From Antedon mediterranea (taxonomy: Eukaryota > Animalia > Echinodermata): a stretch of DNA of 64,000 nucleotides. The stretch lies in contig NC_092676.1 in the NCBI RefSeq assembly GCF_964355755.1, positions 18,246,871-18,310,870 on the forward strand. Direction: 5' to 3'. The notes under the pieces were generated by a model. That model saw only the letters and a program-made list of their open reading frames with translations. It did not search any database and was not told the DNA's origin. Positions within the stretch are counted from its first letter, which is position 1; the number at the start of each line of letters is the position of its first letter. The translations under genes were made by a program, and so were the position numbers. Positions 3,567 to 53,446 of the stretch are shown here, one piece after another.

Positions 3567-4089
3567 ATAGTGCCTCCTTTTTAAAATGCATTCATCTTCA
3601 TACATCAACATCTTATTCACCAAGATTCTGTTTTTGCTTTTCATTATAATGGCAAGAAGACTGCAAAATTGACCGCCTAAACCATAGAGATATTATAGTG
3701 AACTATTTAGGCATATAGATATTGTACTGTTATTATAGTTCACTATAATATCACTATAATATCTCTATGCCTAAACTAAAATAAGTATGGAAAATATTGC
3801 TTTCCACAAACAAATTTCATTTTATTACTTGACAGTTTTTATAGGTTTTTTATGCCCATGTATATAGGTCTAATGTATTATATTTGTGTATATTTTTTAT
3901 CGTTCTTGGTTTTAATGTTAATTTTATGCATATGTGTATATATTGTGTGGGTATGTGTATGTATATATATGTTTGATATATGTAGTATGTATTTCTATAT
4001 ATATACGTGTGAATGTATTGATATTATATACATATACAAATATGAATGAAAAAAATCAAGACTCAGGTTAATAATTCAACATAATTATT

Positions 4090-4660
4090 TATTAACACTA
4101 CAAACTGTTTCATGAGAGAGATAAAATACCTCGTCAATCTTCAAGTGTTAGGCTCTGAGTAAAGTAATTAGAAGAGACTGTTTATAGTTAATATATGCAA
4201 GCAACAAAACAATAGTTGTATATTCAACTGTTCTATTTATCAATAGGTGTCTTTAATTAGTAACCTTTATATCTCAATAAGAATTCTCTTCTGTGTCTGC
4301 ATAGTGCTAAATAATTCGTTTCTTTGACTAAGAGAGCAAATATCTGGCTTAAATATAATGAAATATTTCTCTTGCAGACATAGTTTGCAGCGTTTACTTA
4401 TATTGGAATAAGGCTTACATTTGGCTAATACTCGCCATTTAATATTATATTTAATGTTGTCATCTTTAGTTTCCAAACATGTTAGCTAAGCGCTGTACTA
4501 TTTTTATACTTTTCATTACAGAATGAGCTTGTATGCCCATTGTATCTACACTTAAATGTATTTTCTGTCAGTCCAACATATGTTTCAATTTTGTTAGTGC
4601 CATTTCTTGTGACAGCATGGTATACTACTGTTAAGCATTTCCCTAAAGGGCAAATCAAAT
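4090..4660 (-). mobile_element. Penelope-like retroelement remnant (GIY-YIG endonuclease, pseudogenised)
   Basis: CPLGKC..VVYHAV...TYVGLTENTFKCRYNGHTSSF..NSTALS*, then after a frameshift KDDNIKYNIKWRVLAKC...CKLCLQEKYFII...RNELF. A degenerate hammerhead-like TTGAAGATTG...CATGAAA lies at ~4105-4146. Confidence 0.8.
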
Positions 4661-7600
4661 ACAAATATATAAACTGAAAGATACACAAATTATGATAAAT
4701 AAGTTAACAAACGTTTCATAACTAAACAACTTTTTTCATTAAACATGCAATATATTTTGTAATAGATAACATAACAAAAAATATACAGAAAATAATGTAA
4801 ATATATACATGAGATTCTATAATTGTTGAATAAAGGTGGTAGTTAACCACAAAAGAAAAAAAAAACAAATTTCTAGCTGATGTAGGCCTATCTGGGTTGA
4901 CCTAACAACATTCGTAAAGCATGGTTTAATACTTTAAGTCGATTCCTTTTTAAAATAATGAGAACATAAAGGCCTACTAAATAACTTTACAAGATTAAAG
5001 GTCACGACGTATAATAACTTTGAACACAATTTTTCATTTATTGTTCCACATAAAATATGACAAGACAAAGAAAAAAAAAAGAATTTAAAAAACCTGGGTA
5101 GTTATTTGTTTATGTGAGGAGACTCAAGTAAGCCAAAAAAGGCTTTAAGGCTGAGTTCCAAAATACATCACATAGTACATGGTAACGTAAAATTGCTTTC
5201 TAAAAAAAGGAACAAAAAAGCCAAACAGATTTGATTGAATATGAATACAAGGAAAAGTAAGGAATAAATTCACATAGTAACAAACTTATTAACTATCTAA
5301 AGAATATTGATGATGGATTAAGTATTGTTTGCATTTTTTTTTAAAACGAAAGTAAGGTAGGTAATAATTTAATGTTTAAAGTTAAAAGTTAAATTATTCC
5401 ATAAAAATGGTCCGTTAAAAATGAAAGAATTTTTCCTGAGGGCTGTAGTGTACTTTTCATAAATAAAATGTTTCCGGGTAGATGACCTGGTCTTATATGA
5501 ATGGAGCTGGCTAAACATTATGAGCGCCGCTTAATTATTTCCGGTATTACAAAGTATTTTTGTTTCAACGATGAAAACTGTAAATACTTAAAGTTCATAT
5601 TAACATAATACTTTTCTGTTGACTGAACCTGTAATGTACACGATTTATTGCTAGATGAGTTCGATTTCGATATTTTTATCCTTTAACAATTTAAAACTAT
5701 TTTAATGTAGGCCCACAACAGTTTTGCATATATTATAGCATGGAGAAATAAGTTAACTTATTTCTCCATGATTATACCTAACCTTGTTTTTAAATATCCA
5801 ATATTTTATATGTTTGTAAGCATTTTTGTTTTATCGAGGACGCTTAATGATCAGCCTTCCTTCATTGGAACTGGATAAGCCATATACAACATAAGAGTAT
5901 CACTTATACTGTACAACGATACAGAGATATTGAGATTAATTAGATGTGGGTAGTTGTAAAGTGATAAATGATAACAAAAATGTTCGACAATACAAAACGT
6001 AGTTATAAAATTCATGCAACAGTTTTTATATAGATTTATTGATACATCTGGATATACATGAACATTTTCGCAAATAAAGTATAGTAATTATAGATTTTTA
6101 GAAGATTACTGTATATATAGAATTAATATATCTCATATGTCCATTGAATCAGCTGGGTCGAAATTATTTGCGGTGCTTTCCCCATTATATAAAACTGTTT
6201 GCAGCACACATAGCTCAACTATGCAATCGTGAAAAATTAGTTTTGTGTAGATAACCTATAGTTTGCCAGGAAAGTGTCCACTGAACAGAGGGGTGTCCAA
6301 AAGGAGGGGTAAATTCCAAATTGTATCTACTTTTTAAACTACAACTTTTTAAGCGTTTTATGCATTTTTATCGTATTTTAACTTTACCTTTCAAATTGTC
6401 TCCAAGTTTTTGTGCAATAATGTGTGTGCATTCTAGTTGAATTGTTTGTTTATATTTTATATATATATCTGTTTTTAATTGTTACGAATATACTTGCCAA
6501 TCTTTAAGAAGAATTTCTATTATTATTTTATATGGTAATGGATAAATAAAGCTTTTCAGTATTCAGTGTAACGCTCATAAAATAATCGGTTGAAGATTAT
6601 TGTTTAATTGTTTGTTCCATGCAATTGGATTTTGTGAATGCTCTCTTTTCCCCCTCTCCCTCCCCCTCCTCCATTACAAAAAATTACTTGTTAATGGGAA
6701 CGTAGAATACCGCATCAAAAGGCTAATCTATAGAATGTCTAAAACGGTGATCTATATAATTTATGCGTGTGTTCAAACTTTTTGAATCTGAAAATCGATT
6801 AAAACTGGTACATTATTTGCAGGGTACCGTATATGGTAGTTAGAATAAATGTAAACGTGATGGATTTAACAACACAAAAACTAAGGCACATTAGTTAGTT
6901 CAATTTCACATAGACTATAAGCTTTATTCCCACATGCAAATGAGAAACTCATTTGCATAAGACTAAATTGTTGCTGTGTTATACTGTAAAATAGCTCATG
7001 CACTTATAAATGTTATACTTCTACGCTATATAGCGTTATCATTATATAAATTTTATAACATACTCAGTTTTTTGTATGATACATACATACTACATTGATC
7101 GATAATGTATTATTATCAAATATTGATAATAAATCCTTTTTTTTTTTTAAATCATAAAACACGTTGTAGTGTATACATTTTCTTATAATTTAGAAATAAA
7201 TTACCTTTGAAAAATACCAAAATGGTATAATAATATAATATTAATTCAACGAATTATTACGGTATAATATATTTTCAAATATATATATGTGTGTACATTA
7301 AGAATACGCCAATCACACAGACCCGGATAGGCTACTTAAAACCAACAATTTATACAAGGAAGAGAAAGTTCCTTTAAATAATAAATTAAATCGTTGATTA
7401 CCAATGACGAATAAAAATATAGTTTAATATATATTTGTATTGCATATAAAGCACAATTTTAAAGGCTTTTGTATAAATATTATTAAAATATTTTTTTTTC
7501 ATATTTAAATATTAATCCAGTTTAAATGTTGTATTGGATTAGTTAAATCAAGGTAAGCCTGAACTTCACACATTATTGTGCAATAAATATCCATTAAAAA

Positions 7601-7972
7601 CATATTCTATTAAATATAAAGTGGTTATATATAATATAAATTATGTATACAATAAGTTAGAGACAAATCAGTATAAAATATGTAAAAGATATTCGATTGC
7701 ACATACACGCACCCCCCCCCCCCGCCTTTTTTTTTCAAAAGATTAAAAAAGGTTCACCACTTCTGCCCACTCAATCATGCATGCAATTTCATTCTATTAT
7801 AGCTAACGATACTTTTAAATGTATAAGCTTATTAATAGTTATTGTAGATAAGAGATGCGCTTCACACAAATTCACTACATGTAATTTGTTCAAAGAAGAC
7901 ACATATTAAGAGGAATATTTCCAATTTCCTTGTTTAATTACGTTGAGTTTGACTATTTTGTCCTGGTGTATT

Positions 7973-9773
7973 TTAAGAGGAGTTTGTGTTGCTTACAGTC
8001 GTGTAACACGTAACCGGTAATTTAATCTCGTCGTATTCATATCTGAAAAAGAAATTAAATCGGATCAATCAAAAGTTTAAAATAAAATTTAATAACAAAA
8101 AGATCGACATTTCGGAGCCATCATGGAACCATTCTAAGGAACAAAATGAGTAAAAATAAAAACAAAATACAAAGAATGAGGAAATGCTTCAACAGTTATA
8201 GTAACAAAGACTGAAATACCTCTCGTTAATTATTAAAGAATTTTAGGCGTTGTTTGTCATTTTTAAACTTATTTTTATGATCTATCATATTGGTCGTCTG
8301 TGAAGCAAGTGCGTAGGCGTTGTCGGTTGCTGGTTGACATTAGACCTTGGTCCGGTCCAGGAAGTGATCCGTATCAATATAAAATACAATCAATTAATCG
8401 ATACTATTTCCAATAAGTATATGGAGGAAATAATTCTACCTTGTCAAAATTAAGGAAATTGATTTATAAAATGCGGCCTAATAATACAATGATTATAGAC
8501 ACAAAATACTTACACACGAAAGCCGTTGACACATCCAGTTATTCGTAAAACTGGCACATTGTAGTAATCATGTTGACATATATGATTTGTAGAAAAGGTG
8601 GCGTTGTTGTTGCTATCCACATCAATGGCGTATTCACATTTACAGCGAACATACTTGTGGGTGTCTGGGTACCTGCGACATAAATTATATTAACAAATAT
8701 TGTTAGGCCTCAAATAGACGATCGTAATAATTGGCGAAGGGCGGATCCAGTTGGTAACAGAGACCGAACAGGGCATGCGGGATCCTTCCAGCAAAGATTC
8801 CAGTACCTTTCCCCACTTTGTCCCTTTTCCTTAGTGGGGATAAGAGGGGTGGGAGACTGATTGATTGTCTACGATACATTATATGCTCACAGTATTGTAA
8901 GTTTAGACTTAGTTACTAATAGGCTTATACTTACAGACTGGAATTATGATAATGCAAATATTCATATGGACAAGTTGAGCGGTCTACATAATCAGTCCCT
9001 GTATTAAACTTATCGAGAACAGTATTAGGGCACGTATTACCAGTATGGCTATAAGTCGCATTTATGGTTATACTGTGTGTGTTAACAGATGCTTGACGGG
9101 CTAATCGTAGTTTGACATCCGATGGCGTTTCACATTCCGAATAATCGTCAGTCACCCCGGCTCTGACTTCTTCGCCCGAACTACTGGTCTGAGTGACCGA
9201 GTCTATCAGATCATTTCCATTTTGCGTTGCCAACTCCTCTGCTACATCTGTGGTTGTGTCTACGTCAGCAACGAGATTTTTTGCTGCGCTTCTTCTTTGT
9301 TGTGAGGGATAGGCGAAGCACATAGACAAGTAGCATAAAGTTGTCAGTAAAACTGTTAGTCCTTTAAATTCCTGAAAGTAAATAGAAGTGTAATGCATAA
9401 GTACAAAAAGAAAATTTACAATAATTACAAGTACATTTTTATAACTGTTACGTTTGAAGTAAGTACAATATTGTTTTTACAATTCACAAGCGAATAGTTT
9501 TTATAACAACGTTTAAAATAAGTAAATATATAATACAACATGACAGATTATGAACTGAAAGACAATAAAATATTAAAAAAAAAACATTTTATCAAACGAT
9601 ATGGCTTCCCGTTGAATTTACACAACCGTGAAATAATAAGGTTATGAAATTAAAATATTATTTTAATAATATTAGAATATGGCCTACAGTATAGTGTATA
9701 GGCCTAAATGTACAATGCACAATATTGTATACAGATACAGTCTAAAAATATACACCTTTGTTACTCCAGCCAT
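7973..9773 (-). CDS. IL17: Interleukin-17-like cytokine, paralog 2 (4 coding exons, ~227 aa)
   Basis: Exons 9773-9756 (MAGVTK), 9371-8935, 8672-8514 and 8042-7973 (TAA), with the same intron phases as paralog 1. Motifs RSTCPYE...YPDTHKYVRCKCEYA...CQHDYYNVPVLRITGCVNGFRVYEYDEIKLPVTCYT. Confidence 0.88.
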
Positions 9774-9821
9774 GGTCACAGAAGAATATTATGTAGTAAT
9801 TCAAATGTCGAGGTAATTTAA

Positions 9822-9950
9822 GCATTAAATATATACCCGTCGCAAAGTGGAAAATCTAATTCCTAAAAATATAGATTATAGAATTTTAAAAAAATCCATT
9901 CCATTTTAGTCATTTTATGCCGGATTCTAGATTGAAACGACTATCACGTG
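9822..9950 (-). promoter_or_regulatory. IL17-2 proximal promoter, homologous to that of IL17-1
   Basis: atatatacccgtcg...ggaaaa..t.a.tcctaaaaatata...agaatttt...ccggatt matches 2652-2745. Confidence 0.55.
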
Positions 9951-10865
9951 ATCAGAATATCAGTTTACAATTCCAAATTTGTTTCTTTTTATCAATGAAA
10001 AAATACTTATAAAAAAAAAAAAAACAAAAAAAAAACTTAATCTATACTTTTAATTCCTAATATTATAATATACTATCAAATACATTGATATATATATATA
10101 ATATACTGTATCATATTAGTATATTTCTCAAATATCTAAACATGATTTTATTAAATACCGGTAAGTATTATTAAGCAGACATGTAACCTGATAATAATGA
10201 CGTCATATGTGTATGCTACCAGATTTGCCTTTGGTGTGGACACAATAAAACGGGGAAATACCGCTTTGGTTTTTAAGTTTATCACCAGGCGATACATTGT
10301 GCACCGTTTATTTGAAAGACTTACGGAACAATTGAATGAAATTTCGGCCCGATGAGAAACTTTCTGTCCTTTTCGAACCATTGTCTTTTATTCATTTCAA
10401 TTAATATCCCCTAAGGAATGTATTTTGTAGATTTCTCAATAAACATGTCTATATTTATGTTTGGTACTTTAATCTATATATTTAATAAGTTACTGACATT
10501 AACATAAGTAAAGTTTGCAGTACACCAACGATTTCCTAAATAGTTTGTATTAATAAAAATGCATCGGATAGAAATGCATCGGCTAAATTTGCAATGTCGT
10601 GATGAACTTATATGAATCGTCATCTATAATAAACTGTGAAGATCGCTAACAATAATATATCTAGGGCATTTAGTAGTTATCATAGTTTTTATTCAACTTT
10701 GTTTAATGAGAGTGACTCAAAACAGCCGAGGCTGACATGCATAAGGCCCTCAACACTTAAAAAACGGAACAATAAAAATACAAAAAGACGAGAAAAAGGA
10801 AACCAATAAGAGAAAAAAAGAGACCAATCAAAAAATATATAAATATATATACATAGTGTTTGCTA

Positions 10866-11230
10866 AAGCATGGTTCCCAATAGGACGCAACGCAAGGACG
10901 TGAACGCAACGCAAGGACGTGAACGCAACGCAAGGACGTGAGCGCAACGCAAGGACGTGAACGCAACGCAAGGACGTGAGCACAACGCAAGTACGTGAGC
11001 GCAACACAATGACGTGAGCGCAACGCAAGGACGTGAGCGCAACGCAAGGACGTGAGCGCAACGCAAGGACGTGAGCGTAACGCAAGTAATTTCAGCAAAA
11101 CTTGGTTGGCACTTAAGACGCAACACAAAGAAGTAGACCCAATGCAAGCTACGCGACAGTTCGAATAATCCATCGCTTGTGATTGGTCAAATCACCTTTG
11201 TTGCTCTTACGTCCTTGCGTTGTGTTTAAT
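10866..11230. repeat. Harbinger-like MITE derivative with an amplified 19-bp tandem array
   Basis: Starts AGCATGGTTCCCA, followed by ~10 copies of ACGCAACGCAAGGACGTGA (10885-11085). Confidence 0.8.
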
Positions 11231-11241
11231 TATAGTGCTAA

Positions 11242-11420
11242 AGCGTGGTTCCCACTAGCGACGCAACACAAGGACGTAACGCAACGAAAGTGAATTGACC
11301 AATCACAAGCGATGGCTTATTCGCTTGTGATTGCTAACTGTCTATAACTTCACTTGTCATTGGTTAAAACGCTTGCGTTGCGTTTACGTCCTTGCGTTAC
11401 GTTCTAGTGGGAACCAAGCT
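11242..11420. mobile_element. Harbinger-like MITE (AGCTTGGTTCCCACTAG family)
   Basis: TIRs AGC(G/T)TGGTTCCCACTAG...CTAGTGGGAACCAAGCT. Same family as 53838-54015. Confidence 0.8.
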
Positions 11421-13019
11421 TACCAAAATGTAATGGATTATGCGAACTGTCGCCTTATTGTTATGCTTACGTTGCGACCTTTTTAAAAAATGTTATTACA
11501 TTTTAAAACATTTACATACAAGAAATAACAGAAATATATCTTTAAAAAGTGATTTAAAAAAAAACTATCGCATAAATTAATTACATCGGTAATACTTTGT
11601 TCTAGAATACAAATATGATAGATTGTTGAAATGAAATTGAAAAACTTGTAAGTAAAACACTCATTAGTTCGCAATTATTTAAATTTCATTTGTATTTTTT
11701 GGTAAGTGTAAAGTCAATGATTAAAATTAAGAGATTGTTCCTAGCCTTAATTTGACAAGGAAAAATATACCACTTTACAGTAATAATGAAAAATGGGATT
11801 TAATATAATATGTTTATAAGTACGTAACAAAATTTCCTTGTTTTCACCAGAATACATTTCTATAAAAATTCATCGGTTTTTTCAAACCTTTTTGTTTCAC
11901 CAATTTTTTTCCAGAAATTATGAATTGAACCAAAAATTTGTTGATATAATAAAAAGTTGGATTTACAATTATGCCTTTGCTTAAAATAATCTATTTCTAA
12001 TATTTTTCATTCATTATTACTGACCTATTTACTACCATTTTTGCGTTTTGCATTTATATTCAAGATTCAAGAGATTCAAGATTCAAGATTCAAACTTTAT
12101 TCTTATCCATTTCTGGAAATTCCATTGCTTGCATTATTATAAATTACAGAACAACAATTTAAATTGCATTACAAAAAACATACTTGACATATTTATATAT
12201 ATAAACAATAAAATGCAAAACTAATAAGTACATTTCACTTATAGTTTTCATCGTTTGTAATTTTTGTGAAGAAAAAAATTATTATCCTCTATTGTAAAAC
12301 AATACTTTGACTTTTTGTCAATCAATTTATAAAATTATTTTCACTACTACAGTTAAAGATTGTGAGGTAAACTTCAAGGTATACAAAAAATAATGTAAAA
12401 AATTAGTAAGGTATTACTATAGCTTTGAATGCACATCACTATTGTTAATTAATCTATAAAATAGTATTACTTACCATAGCGTGTTACTTTCTGTATACAC
12501 TTCTTTATAATCGTTTTGAACACTTTACTTGTTAGATTGCTGATCTATACCATTTTCAAAGTTGAGCTATGTTTTATATACAATATTTTTTAAAGGAAAT
12601 AAATATATTCTAAATTTATCGCTGTATAATTTCCGCTATAATCTAAATCCGTGCATTAATGATTACTTCATAATTTCATTAAATAACATTTTACCTAAAC
12701 AAAACCAGGTAAGGATGTGGGTTAGTATAGATTTCCCCTTTCTTAGCTAGCACCACAGGTACGATTTGGACATCAAAATGTTGTTTATTTGATTTAACCG
12801 TGGGAATAAAGAGAAATACTCTCACTCTTCCCTAATTTTTATTTTTATTAACATCCGAAAAATAATGATTAAACATTACTGCAATTGATATTTGAGATGG
12901 ATGACTGTGTTTATTTTTTAAATTTTTTATTTATCTTTATTTCTTACGAATCCGAAAACTCGCCTATTACAGGATTTAATATTCTAAAAAGTATCATACT
13001 TATATCGTTCTAAGTATAC

Positions 13020-16569: not shown

Positions 16570-16864
16570 GATTCCCACTTGTTGGTCAATCGACGCAATT
16601 AAATGCAAGAAGCACGTAAGGACGTTAACGCAACGTAAGCGTGTTAAAGCTTGGTTCCCACTCGTTTGTGATTGCTAACTGTCTATAACTTCGCTTTTCA
16701 TTGGTTAAAACGCTTGCGTTGCGTTTACGTCCTTGCGTTACGTTCTAGTGGGAACCAAGCTTTACCAATGACAAGCGACAGCCGAATAAATCATCGCTTG
16801 TGATTGGTCAAATCCTTACGTTGCGTTACGTCGTTGTGTTGCGTCTCTAGTGGAAACCAAGCAT
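16570..16864. mobile_element. Two nested copies of the AGCTTGGTTCCCACTAG MITE family
   Basis: An inner copy at ~16648-16761 (TTA flanks) interrupts an older copy that ends CTAGTGGAAACCAAGC. Confidence 0.7.
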
Positions 16865-18019
16865 AAGCCCGCCGAAACATAAATAACCAATCATCACGAC
16901 CTTAACTGTTGTTTGTGCAAACCGCAATTGGGTCAGCTCGTTGTACCGGGAAATAGTTTGACAATATTCGGGATGTTGTTTTTTTTTAAAGGCCTAGGTT
17001 GCACCAAAACTGTATGGCATTTCTTACTAATTGAAAACGTCTATGATGTAATAATATTTCATTATTTTAATCCTAAGACCATAGATTGTCAGAACTTTGC
17101 AATTCCTTCGGGTCCACGATGTGGGTTTCATTTCCCTTTTTTTCGATTTTCATTTTCCCGACAAAATATCTAGTTCCTACGTCATGTGTTCCGGTTGTTA
17201 AATTAGACAAAATTAAATTGATCGCCAAACCACATAGCTTTGTTTGCGATTGCTGTGCTTTCCTAACACAAATACTAAATAATATAATTTAAATTTATTT
17301 GTAGTTCACATAAAATTTACCTTTAATGGCCGAAACCATCATATTCCAGTAAGATAACAAGAATTTAAATCATTTTTAAAGATTATTTTCTCCCTGAACG
17401 TATTTAAAAAAAATTTTTCTTGAAAATTCTATTTTAATGTCACATAATAGTTATTCACTTTGACCAAAGATTTTTGGGTCGAAACAAATGAATTACCTGA
17501 AAAACTGTAATTTAAAGCAAAACAAAAAAAAAGTCAAATTTTCTGTCAGGATAATATGTTTTGGTAAAAAAATTAATCCTTATGATTGTTGAATGAAATT
17601 CTTATTTTAGTTCGTTTTTTTTTCTACAGAAGTAAATACTTATTATTAAAACTGCAAAATGGCATATTCAAATTCTGATTTTATTAGTCATGTTTCATGT
17701 TTTGTTGGAGAACAATACATCTTTGACATCTTTTCCTACCATATGATTTTAATTAATTTTATCTGGTGGAGATGATCTGGCATTCCCTCCAGTACTGCCT
17801 GGATCCGGGCCTCTCCAGCATTCTCGCATTGCATTTTATCATTTGTTTTAAATTACGGTAGTTTTTTTTTCTGAATTACTGCTGTTACCCGTTTTTTCAT
17901 TAATGCTGAGAATGTTTTTTGCAGATCTTTTTTTTTTCTTTTATTACTAAAATATATTCATTTCGTAATGACGTTTCATAATATTCATAAATTACCATAT
18001 TCATCTCTTTAAATATTAA

Positions 18020-18900
18020 TTTCTTAACACATTCATTTCTTAGCGCATTCATTTCTAGCGCATTTATTTCTTAGCGTATTCATTTCTAGCGCATTCATTT
18101 CTAGCGCATTCATTTCTAGCGTATTCATTTCTTAGCGCATTCATTTCTTAACACATTCATTTCTAAGCGCATTCATTTCTAGCGCATTCATTTCTAACAC
18201 ATTCATTTCTAACGCATTCATTTCTTAGCGTATTCATTTCTAGCGCATTCATTTCTAGCGCATTCATTTCTTAGCGCATTCATTTCTAGCGCATTCATTT
18301 CTTAGTGCATTCATTTCTTAGCGCATTCATTTCTAACGCATTCATTTCTAGCGCATTCATTTCTAGCGCATTCATTTCTTAGTGCATTCATTTCTAGCGC
18401 ATTCATTTCTAGCGCATTCATTTCTTAGTGCATTCATTTCTAGCGCATTCATTTCTAGCGCATTCATTTCTTAGTGCATTCATTTCTTAGCGCATTCATT
18501 TCTAGCGCATTCATTTCTTAGTGCATTCATTTCTTAGCGCATTCATTTCTAGCGCATTCATTTCTTAGCGCATTCATTTCTTAGTGCATTCATTTCTTAG
18601 GGTATTCATTTCTAACGCATTCATTTCTTAGCGTATTCATTTCTAGCGCATTCATTTCTTAGCGTATTCATTTCTAGCGCATTCATTTCTAACGCATTCA
18701 TTTCTTAGCGTATTCATTTCTAGCGCATTCATTTCTAGCGCATTCATTTCTAAGCGCATTCATTTCTTAGCGCATTCATTTCTTAGTGCATTCATTTCTT
18801 AGCGCATTCATTTCTAGCGCATTCATTTCTTAGCGCATTCATTTCTTAGCGCATTCATTTCTTAGCGCATTCATTTTCTTAAACATATTCATTTCTTAAC
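18020..18900 (+). repeat. 15/16-bp minisatellite (AGCGCATTCATTTCT[T])n
   Basis: More than 50 directly visible tandem units with no spacers. Confidence 0.95.
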
Positions 18901-19898
18901 ATAATCATTTTAACATATACAATTCATATTTTAGCATATTCATTTGATAACATAATCATATTTTAGCAAAGTAATTTCTTAACATAATCATATTTTAGCA
19001 AAGCAATTTCTTAACATAATCATATTTTAGCAAATTAATTTCTTAAATTTTAGCATATTCCTGCAGATCTTGATATTTGTGTTCTTATTGTCAGGAAACA
19101 GCGTGTCATTCAACCCAAGACCAACTTTTACTTTTCCTACTAATGTTATAAGTTTATTATTAGGCCTATATTGAATATAGGCCTACATTAACCGAACTGA
19201 TTTAGATATTACTACATTCCAACCACTAATCCATATAGGCCTATCTTGAAGGCTAAAACCTCAATGGGAAATCACCTTCTCTTGTAATTAATACCACGAA
19301 TCCCTTCTCTAATTAATACCACAAAGATAAATCTTGTCCTGGTGTATCCGCCTGGTAGTACACCTAATAGCCTACCTTATATGTTATTATATGTCCATTG
19401 ACGTCATCAATTTATATACAAATAAGTTGTATTAAATTATTTTTAGTGACATCTTTGATGGAGTACAGAATCCTGTAGGCCAGTACAAACTATTGAGTGG
19501 CGATTTATTTCTTTCACAACAAAATCATCCATTTGAAACTGTTTGTGAATGTTTATTCCACGAAGAAAACTAAAGAGACTAACATCTTCGAGCGAGATAC
19601 TCTAAGCCCTCATATAGTATCGATTCATTATTTAAAACAAGAAATATTTCTTACAAAAAAAGGCCGCTCGACTTTTTGACGTAACACTTTTAATTATTGT
19701 TCTTTCTTCGTAAATAATGATTTATTATCAATAATTTTTTTAACAATCAGTAGTAAACATTTTTCGTAACGTAAAATAGTCTAAGTAGAATAAAAACTTT
19801 GAGCGAGTATACTCTAGGCATCATATAGTATCGATTGATTTAATTATTTTAAAATATATATATATATATATCAGGGACGAGTTAAATTTAACTCTTCC

Positions 19899-19993
<95 letters not shown>

Positions 19994-20118
19994 ATGAGGG
20001 CGTATCAATTTGATCTCTGTTGCGCGTGCGTACAACTGAGGACTAGTGCTGTTCCGCCGTACCACGCCGAGAATGTAAAAGAGTCGTTATCCAATCGAGT
20101 TCGAACAATACCATGAAA

Positions 20119-20190
20119 GCCCCAGTGGTCTAATGGTTAGGACATCTGCATATCAAGCAGGCGGTCCGAGTTCGAGTTTCGGTTGGGGCT
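20119..20190 (+). tRNA. tRNA-like gene (anticodon ATC), element-borne and probably non-translational
   Basis: Acceptor stem GCCCCAG/TTGGGGC, D arm GTCT-AATGGTTA-GGAC, anticodon arm TCTGC-ATATCAA-GCAGG, T arm CCGAG-TTCGAGT-TTCGG, followed by a TTTTT terminator. Confidence 0.65.
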
Positions 20191-20297
20191 ACTTTTTCTC
20201 ATTCTCACAGATTTCCTCATCTTTATCGTTTCAAATTAATTAATTAAATTTCAGTATATCACCAGGCGGTTTAGAATTAATGTTCTTTGCCTCTTGT

Positions 20298-20338
<41 letters not shown>

Positions 20339-20340
20339 TT

Positions 20341-20377
20341 GCACTGATGAAGGGCTAGTGTTGCCCGAAAGCTCTGC
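20341..20377 (+). ncRNA. Minimal type I hammerhead ribozyme (Penelope-type)
   Basis: GCA-CTGATGA-A-GGGC(TAGTGTT)GCCC-GAAA-GC-TC-TGC: intact core, stem II, palindromic AGCT in place of stem III, stem I GCA/TGC. Confidence 0.75.
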
Positions 20378-21031
20378 TATCTTTCCTGGCTGTTTTACTT
20401 TCGTTTTTATTTAGCTTTTCGCTTCTTTTTTTTTGTATACTCCATTGAGATCCAGCCACTGATACCCACAGCATTGTCATTTTTTTCAATAATTTGCTTT
20501 TGGATTTATATATATAGTATATATGTAATTTTTTTTATACATTTATAATAAACTAGTGACGACGAAAACTAGGTGATACACCATGTTTATATACCATTAT
20601 TAACAAAGTATTTATTAAGTTTTTTTGGGGGAAAATCCTAAATTAATGTTCTGATGTAAAGGATGCTTGGCCGCTTAATTAATTAATTAGTATAAACTAA
20701 AATAAAATAGTCAAATTATGTGCCAGATAATGGGGTATCTGGTTAAATTTAACTGTTTATTATTATTTTAGAAGTGAAATCAGTATTTTTTTGTTCATTT
20801 TTCTATGGCAGTGATAAACTTCATTAAAACTTTTTTTTGTAATCTTCATTTTCATGTTTTTTGAATGAGATCTTTACATAGAATCTGTACTCATTTATTC
20901 GACCTATGTGCCGTAGTTGGGGGCGCTATGACAATAAATCAAAACACTCTTATATTGCGAGATGAGCTATTGCATAATAAACGTGTACAAATCAGCAGCA
21001 TGGATGGCTCGTATTAGGACTATGTTTTAAA

Positions 21032-24000
21032 ATGAGTAGATTCATTCCTCATTTCAATTATATAAAAGCCTATATATTACAACCAAAACTATTAAGAAAA
21101 GCGATGTCAAAGATAATTCACATTAAAAACGGTAGGTATTGTCTGTAGTGCATAAAATTGCAACAAATATTCTAGGCCTAGGCCTACCGTGTGGTGTGTG
21201 GTGGAGGCAGTTGAATCAGGCGAGGCGGCACAGAATCGCGCTGTCGCCCGCGAATATACGATGATGCAATATGATGAAACTAACAGGAATGGCTTTGTGA
21301 TTTTTAGAATTGTATTATTTGATTAAAATGTTGGCGCTAATGCAGTTTCGTACCCACCCCTTAAAATTACTCAAAATCTTCATCCAACCTACTCACGAGT
21401 TGTCTACAACATTCTGCAATCATAAAATTGTAAAAAATCGATAATTTTTTATTTAAAACTATTTTTAGGTGATCATTTAGAATAAAATGATCACCTATTG
21501 TTATTGTACAAAATCTTTATTGGTTATCCGCAACGAAGTTGCTGATAACCTCTTGTGATTGTACGAAATCAACATCAACTTTTTATTTTTCTTCTTTCTT
21601 TCTGTATGATTTTTGTGGCACGTTTTTCTCTAAAACTTGCAAACATAACATTTTGTTAACTATGTTAACATTTTGACATTTATGTAACGTCGTCAAGCGA
21701 AGCTTTTCATGATGTTTACAATTGCGCAACGTGACGTACGCGTGATTTAACGATTTTCTCGTATTTAACATATGTCAAAAACCAAACAACATTTTAAAGT
21801 GAAACTTTGCAAAAGTTTAATTTATATCATGCGCTAACTTTCTGTTGGAAAAAAATTGCGTGTTTTACACAAAGTTACGCGCGCACGCGCATTTAAAATT
21901 TCAAAATGCGCAAAATTAATTTATAATCAACTTTCTACGCGTTTCAAGTCGTTTTAAGCATGTCAAAAATTCCCACGCGTGCGCACATTTTTACGTGTGC
22001 GGTGCGCACGTAGCATTGAAAACGTATTTTTTTCACGTGATTTCTGTTTTTCCAGCCTTTTCAAGTAATTTTACCAAATTTTAAACAATTTCGACTTAAA
22101 GAGATGTCATACGAGCACGTCGAATTGGACAATTTGCGCGCGTTTTTTATGAAAAGGTTAAAAAATTCGTTTAAAATATGCCTTTTTTTAAACAGTAGTA
22201 ATTTCTAAACTAGACGGTCAACTTTTTGTGGATGGCATATTCTGGAAGTAGATGAGTTGTAGATATCGGATTAGGTATTAATATGGCCAACCGGACATTG
22301 TGACGTCATCGTATGGCCACGCGAATATAAAATTTAAGATTTTTGTATCTTTCGTCATTGCTCATCACATTGAATAGAGCGCATCTCCACTTATCCGTTT
22401 TCCATTTTCACCCCGATTTTGATATTGTCTAGGTCAATCAACTATCTTTCGCATGAATTAAAAATATTTTAATTTTTATGACGTCATCATACCTAAAAAT
22501 TGAAATCACGTGTGGCATCAATTTCATCTTTACAGTAAATTTTAATCTGTTATAGCTCGTAAGAATAAAATGTGATAATCACGATTAAAACTTTTTCTGG
22601 AAGCTATTGGATTGTAGATACGAAATTATGTAAAAATGTTGCCAATCGGATATTGTGACGTCATCATATGGCCAGTTAAATAAAAAAGGTCGTATTTTCA
22701 TCTTTTGCGTCATAATTCATTACATTTAAAAGAGCGCGCATCAATATTTCACGTATTCAAATTTCTTCTACACGCTAATACGTTGTTGCTGAGATAATTT
22801 CGTTTCGGAATTGCTACCTTCGCGTTTCATTTTAAAACCGTCAACATGTTAAAAATTGCAATAAATAGCGGGTCCCGTAATTTCACCTATTCTACACTGT
22901 ATGTGATATGGATACAGATTATACTGTGTATACTATATATGAATTTAAATAATAAAATTCAGCAATAACAACATATCATATTCTTCAGTTCAGGTCCTAA
23001 TGCCAACGTGAACACTTCCTTTTGTCCTCAACCTATCCCCTTAATGTTAATGTTGCACCACTTGTGCGGCGGATAACCAAACTCGTCAAAGTGACGAGTT
23101 ACATGTCTAGTTATTGTTATTAGTTATCCGCATTTAGCGGATAACTCCTTGGAACTGTCCTGTGTCTTTTTTTTTTTTTTCATTATTCTTCAGTCTTTCT
23201 CCCTCACTTTTTGTGCAGAGCGTATCTCTAAAATGGGTAAACATAACATTTCATAACTTTGTCAACATATGGGCATTTACGTGAAGTTGTGCACCTCCTA
23301 TTTTTGAATGACGTCATAGTTACGCAACGTGACTTACGCGTGATTTTATGATTTTTTTAAATTGATCATAGATTTAAAACCAAGCGTAATTTTGTTTTTA
23401 CATTTTGTGAAAATTTAAGTCATATCAAGGGCAAACTGTTTGTGCACAAAAAATGGCATGTTTTACAAGAAGTTACGCGCGCACGCGCGTTTGAAATTTT
23501 AAAATGCGAAAAATTAATTTCTAATCAACTTTCTACGCGTTTCATGTCATTTTAAGCATGTAAAAAATTCCCACGCATGCGCAAATTTTTACGTGTGCGG
23601 TGCGCACGTAGCATTAAAAACATATATTTTTCGCGTAATTTATGTTTTTCCAGCCTTTTCTAGTAATTTTACCAACTTTTAAACAATTTCGACTTAAAGT
23701 TACGTCATACGAGCACGTCGAATTGGACAATTTGCGCACGTTTTTGATGAAAAAGTACAACAATTTGTCAAAATTATGCCTTTTTTTAAACAATCGTAAT
23801 TTCTAAACTACACGGTCAACTTTTTGTGGATAACATATTCTGGAAGTTGATGAGTTGTAGATATCGGATCATGTATTAATATGGCTAACCGGACATTTTA
23901 ACGTCATCGTATGGCCACACGAATATAAAATTGAGGATTTTTGTATCTTTCGTCATAGCTCATTACATTTAATAGAGCGCATCTCCACTTATACATTTTC

Positions 24001-27000
24001 CATTTTCACCCCGATTTTGATATTGTCTAGGTCAATCAACTATCTTTCGCATGAGTTAAACATATTTTAATTGTTATGACGTCATCGTGCCTAAAAATTT
24101 AAATTACATGTGGCATTAATTTCATCTTTACAGTAAATTTTAATCTGTTATAGCTCGTAAGAATAAAATGTGATAATCACGATTAAACGTTTTCTGGAAG
24201 CGATTGGATTGTAGATACGAAATCATGTAAAAAAATTTCCAATCGGATGTTGTGACGTCATCATATGGCCAGTTAAATAAAAAAAGTCGTATTTTAATAT
24301 TTTGCGTCATAGTTCATCACATTTAAAAGGGTGCGCATCTATATTTTACGTATTCAAATTTCTTCTACACGTTAATATGTTGTTCCTAAGATAATTTCCT
24401 TCTGAAATTGCTATCGAAGTGTTTCATTTTGATACCGTCGCCATGTTAAAAATTTGAATAAATGGCGGGTCCCGTAATTTCACCTATTCTACACTGTATG
24501 TAATATGTATACAGATTATACTGTTTGCATGTATACTATATGACACAAAATTGACTGAATTCAGCACTAACAGCATATCATATTCTTCAGTTCTTGTCAT
24601 AATGCCATAATCTTTATCTGTGTGTGAAATATTCCAACGTATGACGTGCACGTGGCGTTTGTCGTTGTGCGGATAACTAACTCGTCAAAGTGACGAGTTT
24701 CATGTCTAGTTATTATTCTTCTTTCTGTACACTTTTTGTTCGTCAAATATCTCAAAAAGTTGAATAGCAATGATCACAAAAATTTTACAATGTCTTTCAA
24801 ATACTTTAACTTAGCCATAATAAGCTTTTCAGCGTGATCACTGACCCGTGACGTCACGTATACGCGATTTTGTGAAATCACATTATCAATCATATATCCA
24901 TAATTCATTATCACATATTTATGAAATTCACTACACGTAAACTTCAGGTCAAGGTAAAAATATTAGCAAATAAAAACGCACGCGCACGTATAGACATGCG
25001 CGTGAAATCGCGCGTTAAAAATTTAAAAGGCTCAAAATTAAGTTTTGATCAATTTAGAGCATGAATTAGGCCATTTGCGTGTTTCAAAAAATTACTGCGC
25101 AAAAACACGTTTTTGCGCGCGCGATACTTAAAAAGCGTAAAAATACGATTTTTTTGTAGAAATCGCATTCTACTCACCATCCTTAGTACATTCACCAAAT
25201 TTGAGTCAGTTCCGACTTAAAATAACGCTATACGAGCACGTTAAAAATGACAAAATGCGCACATTTATTTCACAAAAGTTCTGAAAATGGTGAAAAATAT
25301 GTCTTTTTTAAAATGAAAATAACTCTTCAGAATGCACGATGACACCTAAGTTTTTTAACTTATTCGTGAAGCCATTGAGTTGTAGATATAAATGTATATA
25401 CACATTAGACGTAAAAAATGGTATTACGTCATCAAATGGCCACTTGAATTTAACAATTAGGATTTTTTTCCGTTTTGTTTAGGTTATCACATTCAATAGA
25501 GCGCATCTCCGCTATTTGACCTCGATTTTCGCACAAATTTCAGTGTGTGCTTGCTTAATTATTTATCTTTCTCATAAGTTGTCAGTGTTGTCATTTTGAT
25601 GACGTCATCACGCGTAAAAACTTGAATAACGTAGGTCGTGTAATTTCACCTTCGCCGTAAATTTGAATATCTTACAGCTCTTCAGAATTGAAGGTTACCT
25701 TGACGATTATAATTTATTATGAAAGCTGATGAAATGTAGATATGAATTCATATAAAAACCAAGCGTATCAGATGTTGTGACGTTAACATATGGCCAGATG
25801 AAGTTAAAAAGTAGTTTTTTCATCTTTTTCGTCAAAGTTATACAAATTTCAAAGAGCGCGCACAGCGCTTCTACGTGCCAGATTCTCTTCCAATTCTTAT
25901 ATTTATTTGCTCAATTTATTATCTTTCGAAATTGTCATCTTTGAGTTTATTTTGATAATTCCATCATACCAAAAAATTAGAACATGATGTGTGTCCCGTA
26001 ATTTCACCTATGCTACACTGTGTATAGATATACAGTATATACTGTACATATTGTATATGGCATATAATAGGCACAACTCAGCGATATAAGATTATGCATC
26101 ATGTCATAGGATGGCGTAAATCAACTTTTTACGATCGTATGTTAACGTACATGCATGTTTAAAAAATGTTAATTTCATTAAAATGATAACAATGATCACC
26201 TATAATTCGTCAAAGTGACGAATTAAATTCTAGTTAATCAATTAATACTGAGCACCCTTCGGAAATACATCGCCAGCTTAGCTTCGCGAAAATCATCGCT
26301 AGGCCTGCCGATAAAAGTACGGAGGCCTCACAGGACATTAACTCTATAGAGTAAACAGTTTCGTTCTATAGAGGGCGTAGTTACTAACGTTTAAAGCACG
26401 CACCAAATAATTATAATTTTCATTATTTCCGACATGCGTTTCGTATTTTTAATAAAGAAAAGAAATACTATACAATTGCTGTATTCATCATTGTGGGTAT
26501 CATCATAATTATGTTATGTTTTTAATTTGTTCTTTCATTTTACTAGTAGAATTTCACACAGAAAAGAAGATAAATATGGAACTGCCGACTCTTGAAGATA
26601 TAAGTACTGACCAATTTTCCTCTGTTTTAGTTTATTTTACATTATGGTTTGTAGGTCAAATAAATAAATGAAATGAATAAAAAGAATTAAAAAACAGAAA
26701 GATATAATTTATTGAAATGTAATGTACAGTAATACAATAATTATAATAAAAATGTTTTCCATCAATTACTAGAATTTATTTTACTTCTGCTGACACTGAA
26801 TACATCATTTCATGTCTATTCATTAATTTATTTCAACAATATTTTATGTTGGTGGTCCATCCAGCCGAAGCTGATCATTAGGGACCCTTACAAAAAATAT
26901 AATTTGACAAGACAATAACACACAACATTCAAAATAAATAGAATTCAACATAATTAAACACAAAATATTATTATGAAAAAAACTTAAAATCCGTTTCACG

Positions 27001-30000: not shown

Positions 30001-32495
30001 TGAAGATTAATTAAATCAGACTTTAAATATGTTATTTTGTAGTTTTAATAAAGTTAATCACTTCCATAGAAAAAAAAAATGAAAAAAAAAATGTTTTCAC
30101 CTATAAATTGACAAAATACATGGGTAAATTCAACCAAAAACCCATTATCTGGCAGCCAATTTGGCCATTTTTTGCTTTAAATTACAGTTTTTTTCAGGTA
30201 AATACTTTTTTTTTCGATCTAATTTTTGGTGAAAGTGGATAACTGTTATGTTACATTAAAATGGTATATTCAACAAATATTTCATTAGGAATTATTTTTT
30301 CAGGGGGACAATACATCTTTAATAATTTACACGGTTGGCCATTGTCTGAAAACATATTATATATATTGCCTCTCTTTCTCCTCACAGAAAAGTGTCTCCA
30401 TAATCTTTAGACCTCTAAATAGGAATGTCCCCTGAATAGATGTGTCCCCTGATTAGGGGTTGGCCAGGGTTAAAATATATATTCTTTTAAACAAGAAAGT
30501 TTCTTTTTAATACTGTATGTTCCCTGAATAGGAGTGTCCTTTGAATAGGAATGGGGTGTCCCCTGATTAGAGGTTGATCGTAGTGTTTTTGCCCCTTGTT
30601 CTCTTTGAAAAATATCCCCATAATTGGGATGTCCCTTGAATAGGGGTGTCCCAAAGGAGGTGTTCTACTGTAATGGAACAGAGGCACAGATGTACTTACT
30701 GTATCTCATGGAATGTTAAATTCTGTTTCACTAAAGATAAAATACTAAAATATAAGTTGCTATGTAGACAGACTTTATTATGAAATTAATTAATTAAAAT
30801 TGAATTGTCTAAGTACTTAAAATGGGGTTTCTATGTTTTCATTATTAGGAATTTGAAGTATTATGGCCGAAACTAGATCTAGTATTTGATGGTGGTGTGA
30901 TCGGCGAGACCAAGGCATCCAGGCTTGGTTCAACAGTTGTAAATTTATCAAATCAGGGTTATTATAAGATTATTAGAAACGGAAGGTAAGTTCATTATTG
31001 GAAGATGATTATATCTGTATAATGTACATAATGTATTTTTTATCATAAGCAAAAAAGAATTGTCAAATTTATGGGATTTTAATGAGAACCATAGAGAACA
31101 AATAATTCAAGCCAAATTGAGCAAGAATCAATTTTTCATTTATTGACCAAATACTTGTGATTATCCGGTACAGTGTGACACTCGGCTGTACTAGAATACT
31201 AGACTGTACTGTGTAACACTGTACCATACTGTACTATGTAACACTGTACCAGAATGTACTGTGTAACACTGTTACCAGACTGTACTGTGTAACACTGTTA
31301 CCAGACTGTACTGTATAACACTGTACCAGACTGTACTGTGGAACACTGTTAACAGACTGTACTGTATAACACTGTACCAGACTGTACTGTGGAACACTGT
31401 TAACAGACTGTACTGTATAACACTGTACCAGACTGCACTGTGCAACACTGTACCAGACTGTACTGTGCAACACTGTACCAGACTGTACTGTGTAACACTG
31501 TACCAGACTGTACTGTGTAACACTGTACCAGACTGTACTGTGTAACACTGTACCAGACTGTACTGTGGAACACTGTTAACAGACTGTACTGTATAAAACT
31601 GTACCAGACTGTACTGTGCAACACTGTACCAGACTGTACTGTGTAACACTGTTACCAGACTGTACTGTATAACACTGTACCAGACTGTACTGTGCAACAC
31701 TGTACCAAACTGTACTGTGCAACACTGTTACCAGACTGTACTGTATAACACTGTACCAGACTGTACTGTGCAACACTGTTAACAGACTGTACTGTGCAAC
31801 ACTGTACCAGACTGTACTGTGCAACACTGTACCAGACTCACTGTACTGTGCAACACTGTTTACCAGGCTGTACTGTGTAACACTGTACCAGACTGTACTG
31901 TGCAACACTGTTTACCAGGCTGTATTGTGTAACACTGTTACCACACCAGTCAGTGTCCCAACAGAGGGGTTCTACTTCATATAAAGCTTGTGGGTTGTTG
32001 GTCTAATTTGACAACAAACTCATAAACTTATGTTTAACTAACACATTACTTTATACTACAAACAGATAAGAAGGCGATTTAACAGCTTACCCTAATTATT
32101 AAATGTCCAATATCTATCTTGCTTTATTTACTTATTGTCTGGTAAAGTTATTAATCTGTTAGATAAGTAAGGGTCAGTCATAGTTTATTGAAAGGGTCAA
32201 TCATTTGTAATCCCTTACAACAACCCCAATATGTTCGTTTGACAGTCTGGAGGAACAAAGCCCGCAAGTGTAATTTTCTGGGGGAATTGGAAGACACCAC
32301 TTAGAAGGAGTGCAAAATATTACTTTATTAGATATTATTGTTATTCACAATACTAGTATGTGTTAGTGAACCATTATTCTTCTACACACACACTTTTATT
32401 CTAGCCACAATTTTAAATTGTTTGTATTTTCTCTTAGTGCATATGAAGATACTGTTAACACTTTACAAAAATATGGCCTGAAAGAAGAAAGGTAA
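21032..32495 (+). CDS. YRDC: Threonylcarbamoyl-AMP synthase YRDC/Sua5 (5 exons, ~241 aa)
   Basis: Exons 21032-21131, 28800-28995, 29686-29920, 30849-30985 and 32438-32495. Motifs GKVIAVPTDTIYG, IKSRNPHKPIAI, LLPGPVT, IGLRIPNH, PLALTSANIS and DGG...GSTVV. Exon 1 is inferred from phase fit and is less certain. Confidence 0.92.
21521..23110 (+). mobile_element. Helentron-associated element Y
   Basis: 5' GGTTATCCGC..GCTGATAACC. 3' GCGGATAACC plus hairpin AACTCGTCA-AAG-TGACGAGTT and CTAG. Confidence 0.75.
23121..24709 (+). mobile_element. Helentron-associated element Z (close relative of Y)
   Basis: 5' AGTTATCCGC..GCGGATAACT. 3' GCGGATAACT plus the same hairpin and CTAG. Body collinear with Y. 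Confidence 0.75.
27401..28467. mobile_element. MITE with ~110-bp TIRs, superfamily unassigned
   Basis: CGCCGTGGCTAAAGACACGGTACCGTATCCTAACTTCCGTTT... is inverted at 28345-28461. AT-rich (TTAA-like) flanks. Confidence 0.75.
29934..30670. mobile_element. Tc1/mariner-type MITE with a nested Kolobok-like MITE (29979-30318)
   Basis: Outer element TA-CAATAGAAC...GTTCTACTG-TA with repeated TGTCCCCTGAATAG motifs. Inner element TTAA-AGATGTATTGTCCCCC...GGGGGACAATACATCT-TTAA. Confidence 0.7.
31190..31945 (+). repeat. 25/26-bp minisatellite (ACACTGTACCAGACTGTACTGTGTA)n in YRDC intron 4
   Basis: About 29 tandem units with variant positions. Confidence 0.95.
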
Positions 32496-52900: not shown

Positions 52901-53409
52901 TCCATGCTGTAACATTAACAATACATAGATTGAATGTTATTTATATATATGTTCCGCCGTACCATGCCGAGAATGTTAAAGAGTCGCAATCCAATCGAGT
53001 TTGAACAATACCATGAAAGCCCCAGTGGTCTAATGGTTAGGACATCTGCATATCAAGCAGGCGGTCCGAGTTCGAGTCTCGGTTGGGGCGACTTTTTCTC
53101 ATTCTCTCACAGATTTCCTCATCTTTATCGTTTCAAATTAATTAATTAAATTTCAGTATATCACCGGGCGGTTTCGAATTAATGTTCATTGCCTAATGTG
53201 TTTATATATAAATATATAACTCTGACGTTATCCAAATTCCTTCACTTGCACTGATGAAGGGCTAGTGTTGCCCGAAAGCTCTGCTAACTTTTCTGGCTGT
53301 TTACTTTATCGTTTTGATTTAGCTTTTCGCTTTTTATTTTTGTATCTCCATTGAGATCCAGCCACTGATACCCACAGCATTGTCATTTTTTTCAGTAATT
53401 TGCCTTTGG

Positions 53410-53446
<37 letters not shown>

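What the first reader, a model, noticed from the sequence alone, without database searches (positions are those of the whole stretch)
19853..20516. Mobile tRNA-hammerhead cassette inserted in (TA)n microsatellites (second copy at 52941-53442)
Seen: a ~460-bp unit occurs twice, 33 kb apart, each time bounded by (TA)n. It contains a full tRNA cloverleaf with A/B boxes and a TTTTT terminator. About 150 bp further on, on the same strand, is a 37-nt hammerhead ribozyme (CUGAUGA/GAAA core) that is identical in both copies. Known: minimal type I hammerheads with a palindromic stem III are typical of Penelope-like element pseudo-LTRs and are thought to cleave as dimers. Inference: this is a non-autonomous, Penelope-mobilised retrozyme- or SINE-like RNA with its own Pol III unit. 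It is not a classic SINE, because the tRNA is internal and terminated. A Penelope GIY-YIG remnant at ~4.1-4.7 kb shows that potential helper elements exist in this genome.
Basis: partly seen in the sequence, partly recalled or inferred. Interest (0 to 1): 0.85.

Follow-up and report, generated by a model that had tools for sequence, protein, structure and literature searches.

The report
Caged-tRNA hammerhead Penelope passenger repeat
This is a high-copy, non-coding animal repeat sitting in TA microsatellites that carries an intact tRNA gene and a minimal hammerhead ribozyme motif; it is likely copied by Penelope-like retrotransposons, and its own leader is predicted to fold over and hide the tRNA, which would keep the cell from cutting the travelling RNA apart.

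Summary
Two 91%-identical copies lie in (TA)n; each has a strong tRNA (Rfam 52 and 58 bits), a T5 terminator and the same minimal type I hammerhead motif. Public contigs show a high-copy family in two organisms, with depth rising towards a fixed 3' end (tRNA half, then hammerhead half, then the last 70 nt), as expected for 5'-truncated retroposition. New here: the leader is antisense to the tRNA's 3' half and terminator and is predicted to fold the 5' 240 nt into one rod (z -5) that unfolds the cloverleaf, while a Pol III-length transcript keeps its acceptor stem. Pol III is unlikely to make the mobile RNA (seven T-runs; leader lies upstream). The nearby Penelope remnant is real but has a different hammerhead, so it is not the shown partner. 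Linkage of the halves genome-wide is unproven: hammerhead halves are 1.6-2.3 times deeper, the junction varies, and some tRNA halves continue into other sequence. A tRNA-derived, hammerhead-bearing retroposon is known (schistosome Sm-alpha). Verdict: new variant of non-autonomous Penelope-type element (retrozyme/Sm-alpha kind); interest 0.5.

The parts
19902..19990 (.). (TA)44 upstream of copy 1, presumed target
19991..20118 (+). Copy 1 leader, family sequence; its first ~11 nt and 20069-20106 are complementary to the trailer and to the tRNA 3' half plus terminator
   Evidence: high depth over 20003-20118 in run X2; loose ends before 52950 match it; fold and shuffles
20119..20190 (+). Copy 1 tRNA cloverleaf, anticodon AUC, A and B boxes; private C61T and G73T
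20193..20197 (+). T5 Pol III terminator-type run
   Evidence: sequence
20198..20300 (+). AT-rich trailer; 20214-20226 closes the predicted rod with the 5' end of the leader
20301..20335 (.). Internal (TA)17 between the two halves
20341..20377 (+). Minimal type I hammerhead motif, predicted cut after C20374
20378..20506 (+). U-rich 3' tail, fixed 3' end before TA
20507..20516 (.). (TA)5 downstream of copy 1
52950..53018 (+). Copy 2 leader, 5'-truncated; antisense arm 52969-53006
53019..53090 (+). Copy 2 tRNA cloverleaf (57.9 bits), followed by T5 at 53093-53097
53203..53241 (+). Copy 2 junction: TA-like tract and 23 bases absent from copy 1
   Evidence: one multi-copy contig in X11 has other sequence before 53219
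53248..53284 (+). Copy 2 hammerhead motif, predicted cut after C53281
53285..53412 (+). Copy 2 3' tail; last ~75 nt have the highest depth in the family
53413..53443 (.). (TA)15 downstream of copy 2
4093..4670 (-). Separate, broken Penelope-like remnant: C-terminal GIY-YIG region with CxxC linker end, then a degenerate hammerhead of different sequence (about 4093-4150); same kind of helper, not the shown partner

Best explanation
This is a high-copy, non-coding repeat made of a leader, an intact terminated tRNA gene, an internal TA tract and a Penelope-type 3' end with a minimal hammerhead motif, and it is likely copied as one unit into (TA)n by the reverse transcriptase and GIY-YIG nuclease of a Neptune/Nematis-type Penelope-like element. 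Shown: the anatomy, high depth in two organisms, a fixed 3' end and variable 5' ends. Inferred: the template is a long RNA begun upstream of the leader (Pol II read-through or the promoter of an upstream tandem copy), not the tRNA's Pol III product; reverse transcription starts at the 3' end and often stops early, with the internal TA tract as a favoured stop, which gives hammerhead-only copies. Predicted: in that long RNA the leader pairs with the tRNA's 3' half and terminator and unfolds the acceptor and T stems, which would protect the template from RNase P and RNase Z; the short Pol III transcript lacks the leader and keeps its acceptor stem. The tRNA gene likely helps at the DNA level (TFIIIC/Pol III occupancy keeping copies open) rather than in translation. 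The hammerhead is predicted to be inactive as a monomer and would cut only as a dimer or with the helper protein.
For: Both window copies have the same order and strand, and the window has no solo half (2 of 2 composites). Depth at typical positions is about 5,300-5,700 times the single-copy flank in the tRNA half, 9,200-12,000 times in the hammerhead half, and doubles again over the last ~70 nt (the tool warns this is no copy number; a crude lower bound is 170-390). Long contigs begin at scattered 5' positions and end at about 53402-53419 (table 8). Hammerhead features match the PLE minimal motif: extra base before stem II, G10.1-C11.1, palindromic stem III (PMC4209133); 25 of 25 metagenome loci of another family keep the core with a different paired stem II and carry no tRNA. 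(TA)n targeting is tied to PLEs with the CX2-5CxxC linker (PMC8557442), and a remnant of that type lies in this window (63% identity to a full RT-EN protein, E 2.7e-10). Cage: leader versus tRNA+trailer complementarity beat 2000 of 2000 shuffles for copy 2 (123 of 2000 shuffles reached it for the more mutated copy 1); fold z -5.2 and -5.1; forcing the cloverleaf costs 16-23 kcal/mol; acceptor-stem probability falls from 0.99 for a start at 53012 to under 1e-7 for starts at 52985 or earlier. Of 6 listed family variants at paired cage positions, 5 keep pairing (weak).
Against: No listed contig piece bridges the two halves (0 of 32 shown, of about 40,000 laid; the TA tract breaks contigs). The junction differs between the two copies by 23 non-TA bases, and one multi-copy contig (X11, depth 68.9) has unrelated sequence upstream of those bases. 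Joints in the reverse order (hammerhead half then tRNA half) exist. No autonomous partner sharing this hammerhead and tail was found. The cage is a computed fold with no compensatory double change shown; an inverted duplication of the kind PLE insertions make could give it without any function. In PAc, hammerhead cleavage was not needed for insertion in vitro (PMC11167929). About 10% of depth carries CpG-type changes in the hammerhead core region (53273, 53274).
Confidence: 0.5

Rival explanations
1. Two separate TA-targeting families: a ribozyme-free caged-tRNA passenger and the truncated 3' end (pLTR) of an ordinary Penelope-like element. They meet by repeated nesting in each other's TA ends or by template switching during reverse transcription, so the tRNA-hammerhead link is a by-product.
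For: Variable junction with TA between the halves; hammerhead half 1.6-2.3 times deeper; other sequence upstream of the 23-base linker in one multi-copy contig, reverse-order and half-to-half joints; PLEs tend to insert into or beside earlier copies (PMC6765202); earlier unchecked notes describe caged-tRNA repeats without a hammerhead in sea urchin and other genomes.
Against: 2 of 2 window copies are composite, same order and strand, with no solo half in 64 kb, which chance nesting would rarely give; solo hammerhead halves are also expected from 5' truncation; copy 1 looks more mutated than copy 2 in both halves (few sites).
Confidence: 0.3
2. An Sm-alpha-like retrozyme: in tandem master arrays the tRNA promoter drives Pol III read-through across the next units, paired hammerheads cut out monomers that may circularise, and dispersed monomers are dead ends.
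For: tRNA promoter upstream of a type I hammerhead as in Sm-alpha (PMC2770079, PMC6765202); near-perfect A and B boxes; self-paired RNA as reported for retrozyme circles (PMC7229834); a few head-to-tail-type joints.
Against: T5 directly after the tRNA and T-runs up to 7-9 nt in the tail; neither window copy is tandem; 5' ends do not cluster at the cut site but just upstream of the hammerhead or at scattered places; the hammerhead is minimal, predicted misfolded as a monomer (stem I probability 0.05).
Confidence: 0.12
3. An unusual SINE mobilised by a microsatellite-targeting LINE, with the hammerhead-bearing segment as an inert captured piece.
For: tRNA-derived part, 3'-anchored truncation and a simple-repeat end are SINE-like (established knowledge; PMC10886601 passages).
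Against: The tRNA is internal and terminated; the 3' part is a PLE-type hammerhead region; no LINE tail match was tested or found.
Confidence: 0.06

Closest known systems
Sm-alpha / Sj-alpha SINE-like retroposons of schistosomes (PMC2770079 passages; PMC6765202 section 11; primary paper PMC108972 not held)
   Same: Short non-coding retroposon that combines a tRNA-derived Pol III promoter (tRNA-Gln-like in S. mansoni, over 1,000 copies called as tRNAs) with a type I hammerhead; very high copy number.
   Different: Sm-alpha is described as Pol III-transcribed across tandem units with an active hammerhead. Here the tRNA has its own terminator, the hammerhead is the minimal PLE type, the two copies are dispersed in (TA)n, and an antisense leader is predicted to cage the tRNA; none of the passages read mention such a cage.
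Animal non-LTR retrozymes (PMC7229834 passages; bioRxiv 10.64898/2026.07.22.740005 parts 1-3 of 5)
   Same: Non-coding, low GC, type I hammerhead, self-paired RNA, proposed to be mobilised by PLEs and derived from their pLTRs.
   Different: Defined as tandem repeats of 150-450 bp with a hammerhead in each unit that yield circular RNAs; here about 500 bp, not tandem in the window, minimal hammerhead; a tRNA cargo is not mentioned in what I read (the 2026 preprint has 0 occurrences of 'tRNA').
pLTR ends of C-terminal EN+ Penelope-like elements, Neptune/Nematis type (PMC4209133 and PMC11167929 main text; PMC8557442 passages)
   Same: Minimal hammerhead with extra base before stem II and palindromic stem III, 5'-truncated solo ends, (TA)n bias, no clear target-site duplication.
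   Different: No ORF; carries a tRNA domain; no inverted copy beside either window insertion; the autonomous partner is unidentified.
TRIMp3 elements Cassandra, Helenus, Ajax (PMC10886601 passages)
   Same: Non-autonomous retroelements other than SINEs that hold an internal small-RNA-gene sequence with Pol III boxes.
   Different: Those are LTR elements with PBS, PPT and 4-5 bp TSDs; this one has a PLE-type end and TA targets.

Membership tests
Minimal type I hammerhead (PLE type) | CUGANGA and GAAA core, NUH cut site, stems I and II | tested here: met
   stem I only 3 bp
Minimal type I hammerhead (PLE type) | Extra base before stem II, G10.1-C11.1, palindromic stem III | tested here: met
   sequence against PMC4209133
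Minimal type I hammerhead (PLE type) | Self-cleavage as dimer or with protein | not testable with these tools
   monomer fold predicted inactive in context
Rfam hammerhead families | Score at the family threshold | tested here: not met
   no hit at E up to 10
Non-autonomous Penelope-like element | No ORF, high copy number, fixed 3' end with 5' truncation | tested here: met
Non-autonomous Penelope-like element | 3' end shared with an autonomous PLE of the same genome | tested here: inconclusive
   the one remnant in the window does not match; no genome held
Non-autonomous Penelope-like element | Partial tandem or inverted arrangement (pLTRs, tail) | tested here: inconclusive
   absent at both window copies; low-depth go-back joints in contigs
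Non-LTR retrozyme | Tandem units each with a type I hammerhead | tested here: inconclusive
   not met in the window; one joint repeats the hammerhead half in two runs; genome not available
Non-LTR retrozyme | Monomeric linear and circular RNAs | not testable with these tools
   no raw RNA reads listed
SINE (SINE2) | tRNA-derived head at the 5' end, Pol III transcript spanning the element | tested here: not met
   128-nt family leader upstream, T5 directly after the tRNA
Sm-alpha-like retroposon | tRNA-derived promoter plus type I hammerhead in one unit | tested here: met
   both window copies; genome-wide linkage open
Sm-alpha-like retroposon | Pol III read-through of tandem units | tested here: inconclusive
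   seven T-runs of 4 or more in each copy argue against it; no transcription data
Functional cytosolic tRNA-Asp | Anticodon and body agree; canonical anticodon loop | tested here: not met
   anticodon AUC with A32; the annotated best matches among phage tRNAs are tRNA-Glu (12 of the 15 rows listed, 3 unannotated); that animals read Asp with G34 is recalled

The most novel reading that the evidence does not exclude
A Penelope-dependent counterpart of SINEs in echinoderms whose RNA is a two-state switch: the short Pol III product folds as a processable tRNA-like RNA with an AUC anticodon, while the long transposition template hides the same tRNA behind a built-in antisense strand and carries a hammerhead at its 3' end. 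This family would link the ribozyme-free caged-tRNA repeats noted in sea urchin to hammerhead-bearing retrozymes, as one class that swaps its 3' helper-recognition module.
Probability: 0.25. Interest if true: 0.75.

Novelty: new variant of a known kind. Interest (0 to 1): 0.5.

Why it matters
SINEs are the known tRNA-bearing parasites of LINEs; whether Penelope-like elements have an equivalent, and what small-RNA genes and hammerheads do for them, is open (PMC8557442 calls HHR function unclear; PMC11167929 found cleavage dispensable in vitro). This 500-nt element puts an intact tRNA, a predicted antisense cage and a minimal hammerhead in one short, easily synthesised RNA, so processing, cleavage and trans-mobilisation can be tested directly. 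It also means hundreds to thousands of high-scoring false tRNA-Asp(ATC) calls in such genomes. It is less surprising than first scored because tRNA plus hammerhead is already known from Sm-alpha.

Tried and rejected
No whole genome was held, so the genome-wide BLAST could not be run. Exact 39-nt hammerhead: 0 hits in metagenome contigs; tRNA and hammerhead patterns: 0 hits in prokaryote genome contigs. A loose pattern in viral contigs gave 120 loci; BLAST of copy 1 against all 145 loci fetched gave no hit at E 1e-3. The 25 metagenome loci are another family without tRNA. No RNA holder listed; run X8 is only guessed to be RNA, so its depth is not used. Runs X11, X15, X16, X18 (organisms C-F) hold the repeat at 100- to 10,000-fold lower depth with the same majority letters, probably traces, so no wider distribution is claimed. 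Ideas tested and dropped: leader as a decayed hammerhead (333 of 2000 shuffles as good); trailer homologous to the post-hammerhead tail (1069 and 1584 of 2000); shared 3'-end motif of the two halves (best 187 of 8047, other three comparisons 1908-3629 of 8047; inconclusive); remnant 3' UTR as source of the tail (337 of 2000; last 70 nt 36 of 2000, chosen after inspection). The small tRNA-like RNA as primer on the leader (duplex -35 kcal/mol) was rejected because copies do not end there. Pfam found nothing on the remnant pieces or on three full-length relatives beyond one sub-threshold hit; the PLE call rests and motif comparison with PMC8557442. The two primary papers PMC108972 and PMC5785218 were not held. 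Repbase and Dfam could not be searched. Eight paper searches listed no description of a caged-tRNA, hammerhead-bearing PLE passenger; I judged most of those papers by listing only, and supplements were not read.

Full report
Observation. The window is AT-rich animal DNA (32% GC); earlier AI notes on the same genome call it a feather star, which I did not test. Self-BLAST finds the two copies at 20050-20527 and 52950-53432, 91.2% identical, with unrelated flanks and TA tracts at both ends. Each has a tRNA that scores 51.6 or 57.9 bits on RF00005, a T5 run two bases later, an AT-rich trailer, an internal TA tract, a hammerhead motif and a U-rich tail. Identity by region is 64 of 69 (leader), 70 of 72 (tRNA), 105 of 112 (trailer) and 118 of 130 (tail); the 37-nt hammerhead is identical. 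A relaxed scan of both strands finds these two motifs and two weak AT-rich chance-like ones.

The hammerhead. It has the features that PMC4209133 (main text read) lists for minimal PLE hammerheads: a base between positions 9 and 10.1, G10.1-C11.1 and a palindromic stem III. Rfam does not detect it. A degenerate scan of metagenome contigs returned 25 loci of another animal family with the same core, stem I and stem III but a different paired stem II, and no tRNA in any of the 25; the core letters were part of the pattern, so only stem II pairing is independent support. In its context the active fold is predicted rare (stem I 0.05, stem II 0.10-0.26), in line with the low activity reported for such motifs.

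The family. No genome was held, so I laid public contigs. In runs X1 (organism A) and X3 (organism B) the flank of copy 2 has depth 255 and 144, the tRNA half a median of 1.45 and 0.77 million, the hammerhead half 2.4 and 1.7 million, and 53335-53380 up to 5-8 million in X1. The tool says these sums are no copy number; bounds of roughly 170 to 12,000 follow, so hundreds to thousands of copies. Long pieces start at scattered 5' positions and end near 53402-53419, and many hammerhead-half pieces start at 53242-53268 with unlike sequence upstream (32 pieces shown of about 40,000). Loose ends before 52950 match copy 1's extra 59 bases, and that leader is deep in X2, so copy 2 is 5'-truncated. The flank contigs of X1 and X3 leave the window sequence at 52950 and 52947, a hint that copy 2 is absent or different on those alleles; the letters were not shown. 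An older subfamily has a 5-nt variable loop and a different end after 20278.

One unit or two. For one unit: both window copies are composite in the same order and there is no solo half in 64 kb. Solo hammerhead halves fit either view. I put one co-mobilised unit at about 0.6 (including the Sm-alpha-like rival) and separate families at 0.3.

The cage. The leader at 52969-53006 is complementary to the T arm, 3' acceptor strand, terminator and start of the trailer: 0 of 2000 shuffles reached the score for copy 2, 123 of 2000 for copy 1, which has private changes in the tRNA. The first 240 nt of copy 1 fold into one rod closed by its very 5' end (-86.3 kcal/mol, z -5.2); the forced cloverleaf is 16 and 23 kcal/mol worse. 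With a Pol III-like start at 53012 the acceptor stem forms with probability 0.99 (the T stem only 0.19 in this model); with 35 or more leader bases it falls below 1e-7, while the anticodon stem stays. Five of six listed variants at paired cage positions keep pairing, which is weak evidence. All of this is computed; no compensatory double change was shown.

Mechanism. Shown: anatomy, abundance, 3' anchoring, TA context. Inferred: Pol III would give only an ~85-nt RNA, and seven T-runs of four or more lie on the sense strand of each copy, yet copies include 128 nt upstream of the tRNA, so the template must start upstream, as for PLEs transcribed from an upstream pLTR (PMC6765202 section 11). An embedded cloverleaf would be a substrate for RNase P and RNase Z (established knowledge); the cage would prevent that. 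TA bias is associated with PLEs bearing the CX2-5CxxC linker (PMC8557442 passages). The remnant at 4.1-4.7 kb is of that type (63% identity to a 726-aa RT-EN protein), but its own degenerate hammerhead and 3' UTR differ from this element, so it shows only that such helpers exist. The tRNA is unlikely to serve translation: AUC anticodon, A32, and a body whose annotated best phage matches are tRNA-Glu. A resemblance of the older variant to tRNA-Arg-derived sea urchin SURF1 is recalled and untested.

Comparison and novelty. Sm-alpha already joins a tRNA-Gln-derived Pol III promoter to a hammerhead (PMC2770079 passages; PMC6765202; PMC8490949 passages). Retrozymes as non-autonomous PLE derivatives are published (PMC7229834 passages; 2026 preprint parts 1-3), and internal Pol III cassettes are known in TRIMp3 elements (PMC10886601 passages). 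What I did not find in eight searches is a terminated, intact tRNA caged by an antisense leader and coupled to a minimal PLE hammerhead; Repbase and Dfam were not searchable and supplements were not read. It works like a non-autonomous PLE or retrozyme, fails the SINE test, and is not shown to be a retrozyme by the tandem and circular-RNA criteria. Verdict: new variant of a known kind, interest 0.5.

Noticed in passing
window 19872-19901: 30-bp near-perfect hairpin with CAGGG...CCCTG ends between two TA tracts; looks like a tiny MITE relic; single copy in the window.
   Followed up: partly
window 53338-53391: Many contigs repeat this ~50-nt part of the tail in tandem or start at 53338; may be the PLE 'tail' or a second RT start.
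   Followed up: no
window 4093-4150 (minus): Degenerate hammerhead in the 3' UTR of the Penelope remnant, first core base changed, long stem II.
   Followed up: partly
L001-L025: A separate animal PLE-type family with the same minimal hammerhead core, short dispersed copies and inverted partial duplicates beside the motif.
   Followed up: partly
window 1483-2004 and 8931-9476 (minus): Two paralogous exons of a secreted-looking protein; no Pfam hit on these pieces; IL-17-like by recalled motif only.
   Followed up: partly
   Followed up: no
window 11239-11422, 53836-54018, 16662-16868, 51894-52029: Palindromic MITE-like family in several copies.
   Followed up: no
window 21580-26082: 1.6-kb tandem duplications with an internal ~355-bp period.
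   Followed up: no
window 60322-60394: 73-bp almost perfect hairpin.
   Followed up: no
window 18015-19046, 31197-31946, 56191-56570: Minisatellite arrays with 15/16-, 25- and 21-bp units.
   Followed up: no
run X2 record 22, on window 20099-20246: A 1,273-nt contig at about five times the usual depth carries the tRNA and part of the trailer, then 1,127 other letters: possibly a larger repeat that has captured this unit.
   Followed up: no
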